Shown: positions 5,632-16,647, numbered from the stretch's first letter. The stretch: DNA of 16,647 nucleotides from a virus (IMGVR_UViG_2531839195_000012); one strand, 5' to 3'. Numbers and translations are program-made. The notes: a model not told the origin generated them from the sequence alone.

Positions 5632-7089
5632 CTAAATATTAAATGGAAGCCACCCTTTTTTCTCTGATAGTTTTATTATCACCAAACCATTTATTTCAGC
5701 TATCGAATCTGGATTCGGCCAGGAAGGTAAACTCTTCACAATTGGATAAATCTTCTCTATTTGTTCTTTATTTGCTGGTTTGCAATTACAGATTCCATAG
5801 TAATTCATAAATGCAACCATCCTAAAATAGTTGCCACCATCCCACCAAAAAAAGATTTTCCAAAAGTGTCTGCGCTCATGGAGAGCATATTTCCTGAGTC
5901 GTTTGAACCATATATATATATATATTTTCCGTTAAGGGAAATGCCTTTTGTTTGAGATGTGTATGATATTTCTTTAGCTAAAGAGATATCTTTCTGTCTT
6001 GCGAGAGTATCATTCAAAAATAGATTTTTGGATGTTGAAACGCCATTAAATATAATAAATAAAAAAACATGCAGTTTAGGTATTTTATAGAGCGAAAATT
6101 GCTTAAGCAAGAAAACAAAATTACTGCTACTATAGGCATTAAAACAAACAGGCGAGGTGGCGCCCCTGAGCCAACAACAACGATAAATATAACCGGAAGT
6201 ATATAAATGAAAATGATTGATGAAATCAAATAAATTGATCTTGTTTTTAATTTATATGTTAGGGTAAACATCAGAATTAATAAAGGAATCAGTAACCACT
6301 TGTATAGGTTTAAACCAGTGGGAGGATTGTTATAGAAGTTATATATATTATCTATGGCTGATTTAACAAGCCATTTAATATCGCTTGCATTTTGTATATA
6401 ATTTGAGATGTACTCGTTCGATTCAAGCGAAAAATAATGCTTGATAGCTTTGGTTAATAGCAGGTAAATTAAGGTAGATAAAGCTATGAGGGATAGAGAT
6501 AAACATGAACTATAAAAAGATTCACGAATATTTTTCTCATTTCGTATTATCGAATTTATCTGCAACCCAATGACGAATGCAATAATATATGTTACGAATG
6601 TTTGGTAGATTGCCATTGAAAGAATGGACAGTACTATACCAGAAAATATCACAATCCTATTTTTTGCGAGTGAAAAATAATTGCTGATATCGCTGCCAGT
6701 AGAAAAGCAATTCCCACAGTATCAGCTTGGTTAAGAAACTCTAATTGATAGGAGATCTGAGGGAAGGTAATAAATACTAACATACCTATCAATAATTCAT
6801 AAGATTCTAGCTTTAGCGATCTGCAGATTATAAATGCTGAAATGATGATAAAAGATAAGGCTATTAATGGTGTTATATAAAGTGAAAAAGGCTCAGGGAG
6901 AAAGTAATGTCGCAAAAAAGTGTGAAACCACCGCCCAAGCGTGATTGTTTGATAAAAATTATTTGTAAACTCGCCATCAATATTAAGTGTTCCATCGTAC
7001 AACCACCCCCAATAACAATAAATTGATATTGCAAAACATGATATGAAGGCAAGGAGATTTGCATTTTTAAATAAATTAATTTTAATCAT
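5632..7089 (-). pseudogene. serotype-specific O-antigen glucosyltransferase (GtrX-type membrane protein), fragmented into at least four frames
   Basis: Minus-strand ORFs 6649..7089, 6014..6652, 5805..6110 and 5632..5820 tile a 1458-bp span directly downstream of gtrB, the position type-specific gtr genes occupy. All are hydrophobic and AT-rich. The start overlaps the gtrB stop (ATGA). Confidence 0.6.
5910..5923. repeat. (AT)7 dinucleotide repeat inside the fragmented gtrX-type gene
   Basis: Direct reading ATATATATATATAT at 5910..5923; encodes the YIYIYG stretch on the minus strand. Confidence 0.7.
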
Positions 7090-8015
7090 GGGTTACCTCG
7101 ATGAGATTTTTTTATGATGTATTTGGGTCTATTTTTTACTTCAATATAGATTCTACCTATATATTCTCCGAGAACACCAATCCCGATCAGTTGCACTCCA
7201 CCCAAGAAAAGTATTGATACAAGCAGGGAGGGATACCCGCGTACTGGGTTACCAAAGACAAGGGTGTCTATAATCATCCATGCACCATATAAAAATGAAA
7301 TGCTTGCAACAAACAAGCCTATATAAGTCCATACGCGAAGAGGAAAGGTTGAAAAACTTGTGATACCTTCCAGTGCCAGATTCCATAATTTCCAGCCATT
7401 AAATTTTGAGATGCCAGCAACACGCTCTGCGCGTACATATTCAACGACATCCGTCGGACCACCCACCCAGCTCAGTATGCCTTTCATGAAAAGATTGCGC
7501 TCAGGCAACAGTTTAATGTTCTCCACAACCTCACGAGACATGAGTCGAAAATCTCCGACATTTTCCTCGATCTTTGGGGTGCTTATTTTGTTGTGTAATT
7601 TATAGAACCACTCAGCTGTCTTACGTTTCAGTCGTCCATCAGTTGAGCGGTCTGAACGTTTAGCAAGCACCATGTCAGCACCTGCCTGCCACTTTTCAAT
7701 AAGATGAGGGATAACCTCAATTGGGTCTTGCAGGTCGACATCAATAGGAATTACAGCATCGCCGCTTGCATGGTCTAACCCTGCAAATAAGGCTGGTTCT
7801 TTACCAAAGTTGCGTGTAAATGACAGCGGAACAACTAGCGGGTCTGAAACAGCCAGCGCGTTAATAATTGACTCTGTGGCATCTTTACTTCCGTCATTTA
7901 TGAATACAATTTCTACTTCATATGGCTTCAACTCTTGGAATTCACGTACCGTTTTATAGAAAACAGGTATCGCTTCTTCTTCATTGAAGACAGGAACGAC
8001 AAGAGATATTTTCAT
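7086..8015 (-). CDS. gtrB: bactoprenol glucosyltransferase GtrB (GT2 family)
   Basis: 309-aa ORF beginning [13 protein letters not shown]..., with a GT2 N-terminal domain (DGSKD, DVDLQDP) and C-terminal membrane anchor. It overlaps gtrA by 4 bp and differs from the plus-strand copy by only a few residues apart from the C-terminal tail. Confidence 0.85.
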
Positions 8016-8374
8016 TTCGCATCCCTAAAGACAATGAACTTTGAATAGACGAAACCGCACACCAGACTGATGGCGGAGAAGGTGATAAGAGTGACTATTG
8101 GAGGAAGTGAGCATTTATCAGCTGCCCAACCAACAATCACACTCAATATTCCCATAAATCCCACGTATAACATGTAGCGCATCGCTGTAGTCAATGCTTT
8201 GAATGTGAATCTTGCATTCGCGAAGAAGCTAAAGCTCACAGCCACTACGAAACCTGTGAAGTTTGCCAGAGCCTGACTGGTATGTGCGGCATAGATACAT
8301 ACACCAAAAACCACCCAGTGTATAAGTGTGTTCAGCACACCTATAGATGTGTACTTTACAAATAACTTTAACAT
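8012..8374 (-). CDS. gtrA: GtrA, bactoprenol-linked glucose translocase (flippase)
   Basis: 120-aa small hydrophobic protein ([19 protein letters not shown]...), the typical size and position for GtrA upstream of gtrB. Confidence 0.85.
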
Positions 8375-8395
8375 TTATTTAATCAATGAGCTCTG

Positions 8396-8442
8396 AAAGG
8401 CATGAAGTCTATCATCCAAGTCTCAATTGATCGATACTTGCT
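8396..8442 (-). promoter_or_regulatory. conserved block in the gtrA 5' region (candidate promoter/operator), shared with the second gtr module at 15141..15187
   Basis: Minus-strand sequence GCAAGTATCGATCAATTGAGACTTGGATGATAGACTTCATGCCTTT differs at one position from the corresponding block upstream of the plus-strand gtrA; it contains one GATC (8429..8432). The regulatory role is inferred from position only. Confidence 0.3.
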
Positions 8443-8575
8443 ATGTCTGATGAGACAAAACTGAGACACATAAGGCCTCACAATGGCTTGCAAGGCTTTA
8501 CATGTTTTGATGTGGTGGGACGTGTGAGCGCAGTGTTGATGGGATAATCCTTTGAATTACAAGCGGATTCTTATA

Positions 8576-8621
8576 ATTCGTAATGCGAAGGTCGTAGGTT
8601 CGACTCCTATTATCGGCACCA
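8576..8621 (+). other. att core: 3' 46 nt of a tRNA-Thr (anticodon CGU, thrW-type) gene, with no 5' half
   Basis: ATTCGTAATGCGAAGGTCGTAGGTTCGACTCCTATTATCGGCACCA contains anticodon loop, T arm, 3' acceptor strand and CCA. The upstream sequence does not supply the D arm or 5' acceptor strand. An identical 46 nt plus 18 further shared bp occurs inverted at 14880..14925. Confidence 0.75.
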
Positions 8622-8635
8622 TTTAAATCAATAAG

Positions 8636-14865: not shown

Positions 14866-14879
14866 CTTATTGATTTAAA

Positions 14880-14925
14880 TGGTGCCGATAATAGGAGTCG
14901 AACCTACGACCTTCGCATTACGAAT
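14880..14925 (-). other. att core: 3' 46 nt of tRNA-Thr(CGU), second copy, no 5' half
   Basis: Reverse complement is identical to 8576..8621; the 18 bp on the integrase side are also shared. The sequence on the gtr side differs from copy 1 right at the core boundary. Confidence 0.75.
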
Positions 14926-15214
14926 CTGTAGCACCAATCATAACTATCTGTTTTAGCAAGCATTAACCGCATTCACTAAGATATAGTTGATGGCACAAAC
15001 AGAAAGTTGATGAATGATGTTGCCATATATATGTCACAAATACGGCACAACGATCTTCAAACATATAGCCACACATTCACAGAAGAGCACAAAGCCTTGC
15101 AATCCAGTGCAAAGATTTGTGTGCCAGAGTTTTTCTCATCAACTACCGCAAGTATCGATCGATTGAGACTTGGATGATAGACTTCATGCCTTTGATTATT
15201 AGCTGATAGAAGAA

Positions 15215-15577
15215 ATGTTAAAGCTATTTGCAAAGTACACATCTATAGGCGTGCTGAACACACTTATACACTGGGTGGTTTTTGGTGTATGTATCTATGC
15301 CGCGCATACCAATCAGGCTATGGCAAACTTCGCAGGTTTCGTTGTGGCTGTGAGTTTTAGCTTCTTTGCGAATGCAAAATTCACATTCAAAGCATCAACT
15401 ACAACGATGCGCTACATGTTATATGTCGGGTTCATGGGAACACTGAGTGCTACTGTTGGATGGGTTGCTGATAGATGTTCACTTCCTCCAATTGTCACTC
15501 TTGTTACCTTCTCCGCCATCAGCTTGGTGTGCGGTTTCGTCTATTCAAAGTTCATTGTCTTTAGGGATGCGAAATGA
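15215..15577 (+). CDS. gtrA: GtrA, bactoprenol-linked glucose translocase (flippase)
   Basis: 120 aa; differs from the minus-strand GtrA by about a dozen substitutions. Confidence 0.85.
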
Positions 15578-16491
15578 AGATATCTCTTGTCGTTCCTGTC
15601 TTCAATGAAGAAGAAGCGATACCAATTTTTTATAAAACGGTACGTGAATTCGAAGAGTTGAAGCCATATGAAGTAGAAATTGTTTTCATAAATGACGGAA
15701 GCAAAGACGCTACGGAGTCAATCATTAACGCTCTGGCTGTTTCTGATCCGCTAGTTGTTCCGCTGTCATTTACACGCAACTTTGGTAAAGAACCAGCATT
15801 GTTTGCAGGGTTAGACCATACAACCGGCGATGCCGTGATTCCAATTGATGTTGACCTGCAAGACCCGATTGAGGTTATCCCTCATCTTATTGAAAAGTGG
15901 CAGGCAGGTGCTGACATGGTGCTTGCTAAACGTTCAGACCGCTCAACTGATGGACGGCTGAAACGTAAGACAGCTGAGTGGTTCTATAAATTACACAACA
16001 AAATAAGCACCCCAAAAATAGAGGAAAATGTCGGAGATTTTCGACTCATGTCTCGTGAGGTTGTGGAGAACATTAAACTATTGCCTGAGCGCAATCTTTT
16101 CATGAAAGGCATACTGAGCTGGGTTGGTGGTCAGACAGATGTCGTTGAATATGTACGCACAGAGCGTGTTGCTGGCATCTCAAAATTTAATGGCTGGAAA
16201 TTATGGAATCTGGCACTGGAAGGTATCACAAGTTTTTCAACCTTTCCTCTTCGCGTATGGACTTATATAGGCTTGTTTGTTGCAAGCATTTCATTTTTAT
16301 ATGGTGCATGGATGATTATAGACACCATTGTCTTTGGTAACCCAGTACGCGGGTATCCCTCCATGCTTGTATCAATACTTTTCCTGGGTGGAGTGCAACT
16401 GATCGGGATTGGTGTTCTCGGTGAATATATAGGTAGAATTTATTTAGAAACAAAATCAAGACCACGGTACTTAATTAAAAGCAGAAAATAA
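15574..16491 (+). CDS. gtrB: bactoprenol glucosyltransferase GtrB
   Basis: 305 aa; overlaps gtrA by 4 bp; GT2 domain. Confidence 0.85.
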
Positions 16492-16503
16492 CAGGATGAT
16501 CTT

Positions 16504-16647
16504 ATGAAGATATTCATAATGCGCAATTGGCACAAGATATCAATTTTTATACTTGCATTTACTTTGATTTGGCTTAGACGCATTGACATTTTGACAAATG
16601 CCCAGTTTTGGGCTGAGGATGCAGTTTTTTGGTATAAAGATGCATAC
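16504..16647 (+). CDS. putative serotype-specific O-antigen glucosyltransferase (GtrX-type), N-terminal 48 codons; continues beyond the window
   Basis: ATG 12 bp after the gtrB stop, open to the window end (MKIFIMRNWHKISIFILAFTLIWLRRIDILTNAQFWAEDAVFWYKDAY), hydrophobic. The N-terminus is unrelated to the first module's gtrX-type gene. Confidence 0.5.
   Translation, partial: MKIFIMRNWHKISIFILAFTLIWLRRIDILTNAQFWAEDAVFWYKDAY

What the first reader, a model, noticed from the sequence alone, without database searches (positions are those of the whole stretch)
5632..16647. Two diverged integrase / att core / gtrA-gtrB-gtrX modules arranged as a large inverted pair
Each module has the same order: IS600 right end, integrase C-terminus, a 64-bp shared segment (integrase stop plus the 46-nt tRNA-Thr 3' core), gtrA, gtrB, then a type-specific gene. 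The modules are homologous but not duplicates: the two GtrA differ at about a dozen residues, the integrase C-termini and gtrX-type N-termini are clearly different, and the sequence on the gtr side diverges right at the core boundary. In both modules the core carries no 5' tRNA half and lies between int and gtrA, which is the phage (attP-like) arrangement described for Shigella serotype-converting phages and not a host-prophage junction. This suggests remnants of two different thrW-targeting O-antigen-modifying phages, or a tandem/rearranged lysogen, brought together head-to-head.
Basis: partly seen in the sequence, partly recalled or inferred. Interest (0 to 1): 0.65.

Follow-up and report, generated by a model that had tools for sequence, protein, structure and literature searches.

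The report
Shigella SfII and SfX serotype-conversion junctions
This is the well-known O-antigen serotype-conversion locus of Shigella flexneri, where an SfII prophage remnant and an SfX prophage stacked at the thrW tRNA gene were reshuffled by insertion sequences, so the finding is real but ordinary.

Summary
Two int / 64-nt core / gtrA-gtrB-gtr(type) modules lie as an inverted pair: 93% identity over 1351 nt, an exact 64-nt core, and no tRNA gene.

The modules are not two phage attP sites. Each is a hybrid prophage-prophage junction.
- Module 1 is the right arm of phage SfII (99.7%), joined at the core to the 3' end of an SfX-type integrase that IS600 truncates.
- Module 2 is the SfX gtrA-gtrB-gtrX cluster, joined at the core to a resident SfI/SfII/SfV-type integrase. 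That integrase is full length but split by an IS600 insertion with a 3-bp target duplication, and its xis lies upstream.

Both junctions match, end to end, junction sequences published for experimental lysogens: the attR of an SfX lysogen and the SfI-SfX tandem junction (Sun et al. 2011).

In an ordinary serotype 2a genome, the integrase side of module 2 adjoins the intact thrW and proA. SfX therefore most likely lysogenised a 2a-type strain at thrW, giving a 2b genotype. The head-to-head geometry already exists in that 2a genome and is bounded by IS elements.

The whole window is colinear with the closed genome CP058589.1. The apparent gtrII frameshifts are single-base homopolymer deletions, probably sequencing errors. 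This is already known biology and of low interest.

The parts
1..720 (+). IS600 copy A, cut by the window edge. In CP058589.1 it follows adrA and IS629.
   Evidence: 100% identical to copy B over 653 nt and a direct repeat of copy C. The left context is seen in L011.
727..1782 (+). SfII tail-fibre C-terminal gene (SfII_23, 727-1377) and the tail-fibre assembly gene (about 1349-1782, broken by a 1-nt homopolymer deletion at 1712).
   Evidence: Pfam Gp53-like_C. Colinear with the SfII annotation. The deletion is listed.
2555..3603 (-). SfII acyltransferase gene (SfII_25, called oacD in the literature), split at 3428 into ORFs of 270 and 78 aa.
   Evidence: Annotated as acyltransferase in KC736978. 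oacD is reported on the SfII prophage in PMC8973906. The same shorter A-run occurs in L013, which also has a 270-aa ORF.
3960..5279 (.). IS4-like element ISSfl9, the transposase SfII_26 of phage SfII. The transposase frame is broken by homopolymer deletions at 4440 and 5103.
   Evidence: Terminal inverted repeats I9. RefSeq annotates ISSfl9 under the match. Deletions are listed.
5632..7089 (-). gtrII, the type II-specific glucosyltransferase. It has three 1-nt homopolymer deletions at 5847, 6061 and 6660.
   Evidence: 99.7% identical to phage SfII. Pfam Glucos_trans_II hits the intact copies in other genomes.
7086..8015 (-). gtrB of SfII, the bactoprenol glucosyltransferase (309 aa).
   Evidence: Pfam Glycos_transf_2. 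SfII annotation.
8012..8374 (-). gtrA of SfII (120 aa).
   Evidence: Pfam GtrA_DPMS_TM. SfII annotation.
8375..8575 (-). SfII attP arm between the core and gtrA.
   Evidence: Identical to the phage SfII sequence in alignment A1.
8576..8639 (+). 64-nt shared segment. Positions 8576-8621 are the 46-nt 3' part of tRNA-Thr(CGU), sense on the + strand. Positions 8622-8639 hold 14 nt of spacer and then, at 8636-8639, the integrase stop codon and the last base of the preceding codon.
8636..8995 (-). 3' 360 nt of an SfX-type integrase (int'), truncated by IS600 copy B.
   Evidence: Pfam Phage_integrase. 98.3% identical to the integrase next to thrW-proA in L007, which carries the published intX-R primer. 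Its end matches the intX end in Sun et al.'s attP(SfX) sequence.
8996..10257 (-). IS600 copy B, complete, with no target-site duplication.
10258..10295 (.). 38-nt spacer of unknown origin. The same int'-IS600-spacer-IS629 linkage lies next to adrA in L008.
10296..11611 (+). IS629-like IS3-family element.
   Evidence: Terminal inverted repeats I8. Annotated as IS3 family transposase in E. coli genomes. Named IS629 in the locus map of Sun et al. 2011.
11612..12437 (+). Early-region genes of an SfII-family prophage: a DUF551 ORF (11529-11906), a 101-aa ORF (11906-12211) and an excisionase-like HTH_17 ORF (12127-12561).
   Evidence: 98.5% identical to the SfII int-xis region. Pfam hits. The same orf-orf-xis-int-thrW-proA order occurs in many E. 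coli genomes.
12438..13154 (+). N-terminal part of the SfI/SfII/SfV-type integrase.
   Evidence: Contiguous with the C-terminal part in L005/L013, where the gene is intact at 387 aa. Joined to the C-terminal part it reconstitutes a 1164-nt gene.
13155..14417 (+). IS600 copy C, a simple insertion in the integrase gene with the 3-bp target duplication AAG.
   Evidence: The same insertion point occurs in L014 and L009.
14418..14865 (+). C-terminal part of the same integrase. It has a 1-nt homopolymer deletion at 14480.
   Evidence: Matches the thrW-adjacent integrase fragment of the 2a genome L014: no difference in alignment A1, 99.77% over window 13155-14925 with IS600 copy C. Carries the published intI-R primer at 14697.
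14862..14925 (-). 64-nt shared segment. Positions 14880-14925 are the 46-nt tRNA-Thr 3' part, sense on the - strand.
14926..15214 (+). SfX attP arm between the core and gtrA.
   Evidence: Matches the published attP(SfX) and attR(036_X) sequences. 99.94% identical to L008.
15215..16491 (+). gtrA (15215-15577) and gtrB (15574-16491) of SfX.
   Evidence: Pfam families. GtrA differs from the SfII GtrA at 13 of 120 residues.
16504..16647 (+). 5' end of gtrX, which runs off the window.
   Evidence: The window is identical to CP058589.1 here. The 421-aa product in that genome is 100% identical to SfX GtrX, L05001.

Best explanation
The window is part of the serotype-conversion region (SHI-O, between proA/thrW and adrA/yaiC) of a Shigella flexneri strain that carries both gtrII and gtrX.

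Origin of the junctions. Tyrosine integrases of the P22/Sf family recombine a 46-nt identity with the 3' end of thrW. Every integration therefore leaves one extra copy of the core. When phages integrate serially, each internal junction reads 'gtr cargo of one element - core - integrase of the element already there'. That looks like an attP but is a hybrid.
- Module 1 is such a junction. It joins the SfII right arm (SfII_23 through gtrII-gtrB-gtrA and the attP arm) to an SfX-type integrase gene, of which IS600 has left only 360 nt.
- Module 2 joins the SfX cargo (gtrA-gtrB-gtrX, followed outside the window by a P22-like tailspike and late genes) to the resident SfI/SfII/SfV-type integrase. That integrase sits next to thrW in 2a genomes and, by its 17-nt end, in the published serotype Y strain, and is split by IS600.

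Most likely history.
- A 2a-type strain already carried module 1 facing thrW-int head to head (shown in a sister genome).
- SfX then lysogenised that strain at thrW (inferred). This converted thrW-core-int into gtrX-gtrB-gtrA-core-int and moved the thrW 5' half to the far end of SfX.
- The inverted orientation and the loss of most of SfII come from IS600/IS629-associated rearrangements. The exact sequence of these events is not resolved.

Function, from established knowledge of Gtr systems. GtrB loads glucose on undecaprenyl phosphate, GtrA flips it to the periplasm, and GtrII or GtrX attaches it to its specific rhamnose. This gives type II and group 7,8 antigens, that is serotype 2b, provided gtrII is intact.
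For: Shown:
- The module 1 gtr side is 99.7% identical to phage SfII from the ISSfl9 transposase gene to the core, and the match stops at the core.
- Alignment A1. On the integrase side, module 1 groups with the integrase next to thrW-proA in L007, and module 2 groups with the SfII phage integrase and shows no difference from the 2a genome L014. On the other side, module 1 equals the SfII attP arm, L014 and L007 carry the thrW 5' half, and module 2 is unique (SfX).
- The published attR of the SfX lysogen 036_X aligns over its full 378 nt with window 15229-14848, with 0 mismatches. The published SfI-SfX junction aligns over its full 292 nt with window 8363-8650. The published attP(SfI) and attP(SfX) align only up to the core.
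- Primer intX-R occurs only in the L007 integrase. Primer intI-R occurs in the module 2 integrase.
- GtrX is 100% identical to L05001, and the cluster is followed by P22-like tailspike, gp16, gp20 and gp7 genes.
- In the 2a genome L014, IS600(C)-int C-part-core is contiguous with the intact thrW and proA. Module 1 lies 2.5 kb away in inverted orientation.
- A direct, uninverted arrangement occurs in CP055138.1.
- IS600 copy C has the 3-bp target duplication AAG, and the split integrase reconstitutes a 1164-nt gene.
- The whole window is colinear with the closed genome CP058589.1 at 99.7%.

Literature:
- Tandem integration at attL of a resident prophage, and the resident int-IS600-IS629-yaiC structure: PMC3306764.
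- SfX converts 2a to 2b: PMC5402852.
Against: - The far end of SfX (intX-thrW-proA) could not be fetched for this genome type. It was seen only in L007, a different arrangement.
- The order of IS events is not resolved. A simple IS629 duplicative-inversion model, or recombination between inverted IS629 copies, predicts the wrong orientation for the adrA-proximal IS629.
- A second lineage (L008) has int'-IS600-IS629-adrA as its resident structure. Which integrase remnant is older is therefore uncertain.
- All SfI/SfII/SfV-type integrases here are 97.7-99.5% identical. The split integrase cannot be assigned to SfII proper, to another SfII-family phage such as the oacB carrier, or to an older resident element.
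- If the gtrII frameshifts are real, the strain would be serotype X rather than 2b.
Confidence: 0.85

Rival explanations
1. The two hybrids arose together by site-specific recombination at the core. Int would have recombined two inverted attP-like sites (SfII int-core-SfII arm and SfX int-core-SfX arm), inverting the segment between them and swapping partners.
For: The modules are reciprocal hybrids: X-type integrase with SfII arm, and SfII-type integrase with SfX arm. Their cores are inverted and exactly identical over 64 nt.
Against: - Each hybrid exists alone in genomes that lack the partner. Module 1 occurs in the 2a genome L014, which has no gtrX in the locus held and has an intact thrW. 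Module 2 occurs in L009 and in the published 036_X lysogen without gtrII.
- Both integrase genes in the window are disrupted.
- The starting state would need two chromosomal attP-like sites that themselves require tandem lysogeny.
Confidence: 0.06
2. The head-to-head pair is an assembly artefact: a chimeric join through the three IS600 copies or through the 1.35-kb gtrAB repeat.
For: The window contains three IS600 copies at 99-100% identity and many homopolymer indels, which point to an error-prone assembly. The matching genome CP058589.1 has an odd 12-kb tandem duplication next to it.
Against: - The full 16.6-kb order is reproduced in the closed genome CP058589.1.
- Junctions on both sides of the repeats are seen independently. 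T-core-int'-IS600 occurs in L013-L017, IS600(C)-int-core-gtrABX in L009, and int'-IS600-spacer-IS629 in L008.
- Homopolymer errors are typical of long reads, which span 1.3-kb repeats.
Confidence: 0.04
3. Each module is a contiguous piece of one phage genome, that is a genuine attP region of two diverged thrW phages, preserved for example at the junctions of same-phage tandem dimers.
For: The order int-core-gtrA-gtrB-gtr(type) is that of phage attP regions.
Against: - Identity to SfII ends 4 nt into the integrase.
- The published attP(SfI) and attP(SfX) match only up to the core, whereas the published hybrid junctions match end to end.
- The integrase types are swapped relative to the cargo.
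Confidence: 0.03

Closest known systems
Tandem SfI-SfX lysogen 036_1d and SfX lysogen 036_X (Sun et al. 2011, BMC Microbiol 11:269, PMC3306764)
   Same: - The same thrW core, the same resident putative integrase followed by IS600 and IS629 before yaiC/adrA, and the same rule that a new phage integrates at the thrW end (attL) of the resident one.
- Their attR(036_X) sequence matches module 2 end to end. Their SfI-SfX junction matches module 1 end to end. (SfI and SfII share the arm.)
   Different: - Here the type phage is SfII, not SfI, and is reduced to its right arm.
- The X-type integrase of module 1 is a 360-nt stump cut by IS600.
- The two junctions are inverted and 6.2 kb apart, instead of direct and a prophage length apart.
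SHI-O serotype-conversion region of S. flexneri 2a (Sf301/2457T type; here CP026788.1, L014)
   Same: - Same SfII remnant: tail fibre, oacD, ISSfl9, gtrII-gtrB-gtrA, core, int' and IS600.
- Same IS600-split integrase C-part and the same head-to-head geometry.
- The literature notes that little of SfII remains and that IS-mediated inversions surround SHI-O.
   Different: - In 2a genomes the second core is the intact thrW followed by proA. Here SfX is inserted there.
- The window keeps the integrase N-part, xis and IS629, which L014 lacks.
- The window type lacks the oacB-int387 block.
Phage SfII (KC736978 / AF021347) gtr-attP-int region
   Same: 99.7% identity from the transposase gene through gtrII, gtrB, gtrA and the attP arm to the core.
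   Different: The integrase beyond the core is not the SfII integrase (about 75% identity).
Phage SfX gtrA-gtrB-gtrX (L05001; Guan et al. 1999, as cited in PMC5402852)
   Same: GtrX is 100% identical. The arm and core match the published attP(SfX).
   Different: The integrase next to the core is the SfI/SfII/SfV type, not intX.

Membership tests
Gtr three-gene O-antigen glucosylation cluster (gtrA-gtrB-gtr(type)) | Small GtrA membrane protein (PF04138) encoded first | tested here: met
   Both 120-aa proteins. Pfam hit for module 1, and the Pfam family for module 2.
Gtr three-gene O-antigen glucosylation cluster (gtrA-gtrB-gtr(type)) | GtrB family-2 glycosyltransferase (PF00535) overlapping gtrA | tested here: met
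   309 aa and 305 aa..
Gtr three-gene O-antigen glucosylation cluster (gtrA-gtrB-gtr(type)) | Third, serotype-specific glucosyltransferase gene, intact | tested here: inconclusive
   - gtrII is 99.7% identical to SfII but has three 1-nt homopolymer deletions in this window. They are probably errors, because the window shows the same kind of deletion throughout.
- Only 48 codons of gtrX lie in the window. The full gene in CP058589.1 is 100% identical to L05001.
Gtr three-gene O-antigen glucosylation cluster (gtrA-gtrB-gtr(type)) | Glucosylation of the O antigen giving type II and group 7,8 antigens | not testable with these tools
   Needs serology or O-antigen chemistry.
thrW-targeting integration module of P22/Sf phages | Core identical to the 3' 46 nt of tRNA-Thr(CGU) | tested here: met
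   Both cores are identical to the thrW 3' part in L014 and L007. AF021347 annotates the site as attP similar to P22 attP.
thrW-targeting integration module of P22/Sf phages | Functional tyrosine integrase gene adjacent to the core | tested here: not met
   Both have the Phage_integrase domain. One is a 117-aa stump and the other is split by IS600.
Genuine phage attP (both arms from one phage) | Sequence on both sides of the core matches the same phage | tested here: not met
   SfII identity stops at the core. The published attP sequences match only to the core, while the published hybrid junctions match end to end.
IS600 (IS3 family) simple insertion | Complete element flanked by a 3-bp target duplication | tested here: met
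   Copy C has an AAG duplication inside the integrase gene. Copy B has no duplication, so it is a rearrangement junction.

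The most novel reading that the evidence does not exclude
The several thrW cores and directly or invertedly repeated IS600 copies might form a switchboard for one-step serotype change.
- Int/Xis supplied by the resident SfX could invert the 6.2-kb segment between the two inverted, attP-like hybrid sites.
- Any core copy could serve as a landing site. 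In CP055138.1, SfX cargo sits next to a different integrase copy.
- Recombination between IS600 copies A and C would delete gtrII and turn 2b into X.

None of this was tested here.
Probability: 0.15. Interest if true: 0.35.

Novelty: already known. Interest (0 to 1): 0.12.

Why it matters
It matters little beyond annotation. The locus determines the O-antigen serotype (type II and group 7,8), which is relevant to typing and vaccines. The genes, the att core, tandem integration at thrW and IS-driven scrambling of SHI-O are all published.

The practical value is threefold.
- The attP-like look is explained as serial integration.
- The window can be assigned to a gtrII+gtrX (2b-type) S. flexneri.
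- The frameshifts in gtrII and other genes are flagged as probable homopolymer sequencing errors that would mislead in silico serotyping.

Tried and rejected
- My first model was wrong on one point. It took int' (module 1) to be the resident remnant of phage-free strains, with SfII integrating next to it. It also took L009 (adrA-IS629-IS600-int C-part-core-gtrABX) to derive from a window-like genome by an IS600 A x C deletion. The supplementary sequences of Sun et al. show that the resident integrase of a serotype Y strain is the SfI/SfII type and that int' is the SfX type. L009 is therefore more simply an SfX lysogen of that background.
- I tried to derive the inversion from one IS629 duplicative inversion, or from recombination between inverted IS629 copies. 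Both predict that the IRR end of IS629 faces adrA. CP058589.1, L009 and L014 have the IRL end at the same site, and only L008 has IRR. This is unresolved.
- I tried to assign the split integrase to SfII proper. All integrases of this type are 97.7-99.5% identical, so this was not possible.
- The E. coli genome collection has no Shigella record holding the whole arrangement (0 places cover 80% or more). The source-like genome was found through exact-protein look-ups instead.
- The look-up with the 101-aa ORF returned only E. coli single lysogens. These were useful as the canonical orf-xis-int-thrW-proA geometry but gave no further copies of the central junction.
- The far end of SfX in CP058589.1 could not be fetched, because look-ups are limited to window proteins.

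Full report
**1. Observation**

The repeat scan finds a 1351-nt inverted repeat (7109-8459 against 15130-16480, 93%). It also finds an exact 64-nt inverted repeat (8576-8639 against 14862-14925) and inverted IS600 ends next to both integrase fragments.

ARAGORN finds no tRNA gene in the window. Reading the sequence, the 64 nt comprise a 4-nt overlap with the integrase ORF (last base of the final sense codon plus the TAA stop), 14 nt of spacer, and then TGGTGCCGATAATAGGAGTCGAACCTACGACCTTCGCATTACGAAT. This is the reverse complement of the last 46 nt of tRNA-Thr(CGU). These 46 nt coincide with the 3' part of the thrW genes called in L014 and L007.

The two GtrA proteins differ at 13 of 120 residues, and GtrB is 289/309 identical.

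**2. What each side of each core is**

Module 1:
- Window 4134-8639 is 99.7% identical to phage SfII (KC736978). It covers the ISSfl9-type transposase, gtrII, gtrB, gtrA and the arm up to the core, and the match stops there.
- The SfII annotation further left shows that window 727-8639 is colinear with SfII_23 (tail fibre), the tail-fibre assembly gene, the acyltransferase (oacD in the literature), the transposase and gtrII-B-A.
- Beyond the core, the 360-nt integrase stump (8636-8995; Phage_integrase) is only about 75% identical to the SfII-type integrase.
- It is 98.3% identical to the integrase next to thrW-proA in L007. That integrase carries the published intX-R primer.

Module 2:
- gtrA, gtrB and the start of the third gene are 99.9% identical to several S. 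flexneri genomes.
- The complete third gene in CP058589.1 is 100% identical to SfX GtrX (L05001). It is followed by P22-like tailspike, Mnt/Arc, gp16, gp20 and gp7 genes.
- The integrase on the other side of the core is the SfI/SfII/SfV type (97.6-98.5% to SfII) and carries primer intI-R.
- This integrase is not a mere C-terminus. Window 12438-13154 is its N-terminal part, preceded by an excisionase-like ORF and two small ORFs, as in phage SfII.
- IS600 copy C (13155-14417) is a simple insertion with a 3-bp duplication (AAG). Joining the two parts gives a 1164-nt gene. The gene is intact (387 aa) in CP055138.1.

**3. The modules are hybrid junctions**

Alignment A1 puts five sequences side by side: module 1, module 2, the SfII attP, and the thrW junctions of L014 and L007.
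- The 64 nt are invariant in all five.
- On the integrase side, module 1 groups with L007 (X type). Module 2 groups with SfII and shows no difference from L014.
- On the other side, module 1 equals the SfII arm, L014 and L007 carry the thrW 5' half and the proA flank, and module 2 is unique.

The supplementary sequences of Sun et al. 2011 settle the matter.
- Their attR of the SfX lysogen 036_X aligns over all 378 nt with window 15229-14848, with no mismatches and three 1-nt gaps.
- Their junction between SfI and SfX in the tandem lysogen 036_1d aligns over all 292 nt with window 8363-8650.
- Their attP(SfI) and attP(SfX) align only up to the end of the 64 nt.

That paper also shows that a phage-free serotype Y strain has proA-thrW-putative integrase-IS600-IS629-yaiC. 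It shows that the second phage integrates at the attL (thrW) end of the first.

**4. Context in closed genomes**

- Source-like genome. The whole window is colinear (99.7%) with the closed genome CP058589.1. There, adrA-IS629-IS600 lies to the left and SfX late genes to the right.
- Ordinary 2a genome (CP026788.1, L014). It holds the same SfII remnant-core-int'-IS600 block. About 2.5 kb further on, in inverted orientation, lies IS600(C)-integrase C-part-core, contiguous with the intact thrW and proA. The head-to-head geometry therefore exists without SfX, and one of its two cores is simply thrW.
- Direct version (CP055138.1, L005/L013). It has the uninverted order: SfX...gtrX-B-A-core-int(387 aa)-IS600-tail fibre...gtrII-B-A-core-int'-IS600.
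- Canonical single lysogen. Many E. coli genomes show orf-orf-xis-int-thrW-proA-proB.

**5. Mechanism and history**

Shown: every junction has the form 'cargo of one element - core - integrase of another'.

Inferred:
- Serial Int-mediated integration at the 46-nt core produced these junctions.
- SfX lysogenised a 2a-type strain at thrW, which gives module 2 and moves the thrW 5' half to the far end of SfX. This matches the literature statement that SfX converts 2a to 2b.
- The inversion and the loss of most of SfII are IS-associated, because each breakpoint coincides with an IS600 or IS629 end. Reports of IS-mediated inversion around SHI-O agree with this.

I could not reconstruct the exact series of IS events. 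Simple IS629 models predict the wrong orientation of the adrA-proximal IS629, which occupies the same site in both orientations in different genomes.

**6. Sequence quality**

Compared with phage SfII and four genomes, the window repeatedly lacks one base in A or T runs. The sites include 674, 1712, 4440, 5103, 5847, 6061, 6660, 9027, 9059 and 14480.
- Eleven of its 14 differences from L014 are single-base indels: ten are bases missing from A or T runs and one (8937) is an extra A in the window.
- This explains why gtrII, the ISSfl9 transposase, the tail-fibre assembly gene and the integrase C-part appear fragmented.
- The cause is most likely sequencing error, not pseudogenisation.
- The shorter A-run at 3428 in oacD is the exception. 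CP055138.1 shares it, so it may be real.

**7. Comparison with the known, and verdict**

All parts are published entities: the SfII gtr region, the SfX gtr region, the thrW attP core shared with P22, tandem lysogeny at thrW, and the IS-scrambled SHI-O. The junction sequences themselves are in the literature.

The reading of the modules as attP rather than host-prophage junctions is not. Novelty: already known. Interest is low.

Noticed in passing
window 674, 1712, 4440, 5103, 5847, 6061, 6660, 9027, 9059, 12818, 14480: The window systematically lacks one base in A or T homopolymers relative to other sequences: most sites relative to phage SfII and/or two to three genomes, 12818 and 14480 relative to one genome each. 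This fragments gtrII, the ISSfl9 transposase, the tail-fibre assembly gene and the integrase. It looks like an assembly error profile, not biology.
   Followed up: yes
window 3428 (oacD, 2555-3603): The A-run is one base shorter than in SfII/L014, giving a 270-aa ORF. The same state occurs in CP055138.1 (L013). CP058589.1 instead has an 11-bp deletion at 3253-3263. oacD may be independently inactivated in gtrII+gtrX strains.
   Followed up: partly
CP058589.1 region (L011, L012, L004; window 1-11605 matches twice): The closed genome that matches the window carries a tandem duplication of about 12 kb covering the unit IS600-SfII remnant-core-int'-IS600-IS629. That gives two gtrII clusters plus gtrX. 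It could be real amplification or an assembly problem.
   Followed up: partly
L008 6380-6480 versus L011/L014/L009, 90 bp upstream of adrA: IS629 sits at exactly the same site upstream of adrA in both orientations in different genomes: IRR faces adrA in L008 and IRL faces it in the others. Simple recombination between IS copies does not explain this.
   Followed up: partly
L014 7166-7891 (2a genome), compared with window 14418-15141: The oacB 'transposon-like' block of 2a strains is int(387 aa)-core-216 nt of SfX-type arm-oacB. The acetyltransferase therefore occupies the same cargo position as gtrABX, behind a 96.8% identical stretch (integrase C-part, core and the arm).
   Followed up: partly
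L002 (E. coli 81EVA, NZ_CP138397.1) 4217-6670: An X-type integrase stump, the core and about 125 nt of SfII-type arm are followed by genes for an FRG-domain protein, an AAA ATPase and an HNH endonuclease where the gtr genes would be. This may be a defence-like cargo at the same position.
   Followed up: no
L003 (E. coli ES9) 5331-9557: An intact SfII-type integrase, the core and a gtrA-gtrB-gtrC cluster of a P22-like prophage lie in the same attP-like order in an E. coli chromosome. Such stacked junctions are therefore not specific to Shigella.
   Followed up: no
window 10258-10295: A 38-nt spacer of unknown origin lies between IS600 copy B and IS629. It is conserved in L008.
   Followed up: no
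window 1941-1971 / 2084-2114: A 31-nt imperfect inverted repeat (74%) lies downstream of the tail-fibre assembly gene. It was not examined.
   Followed up: no
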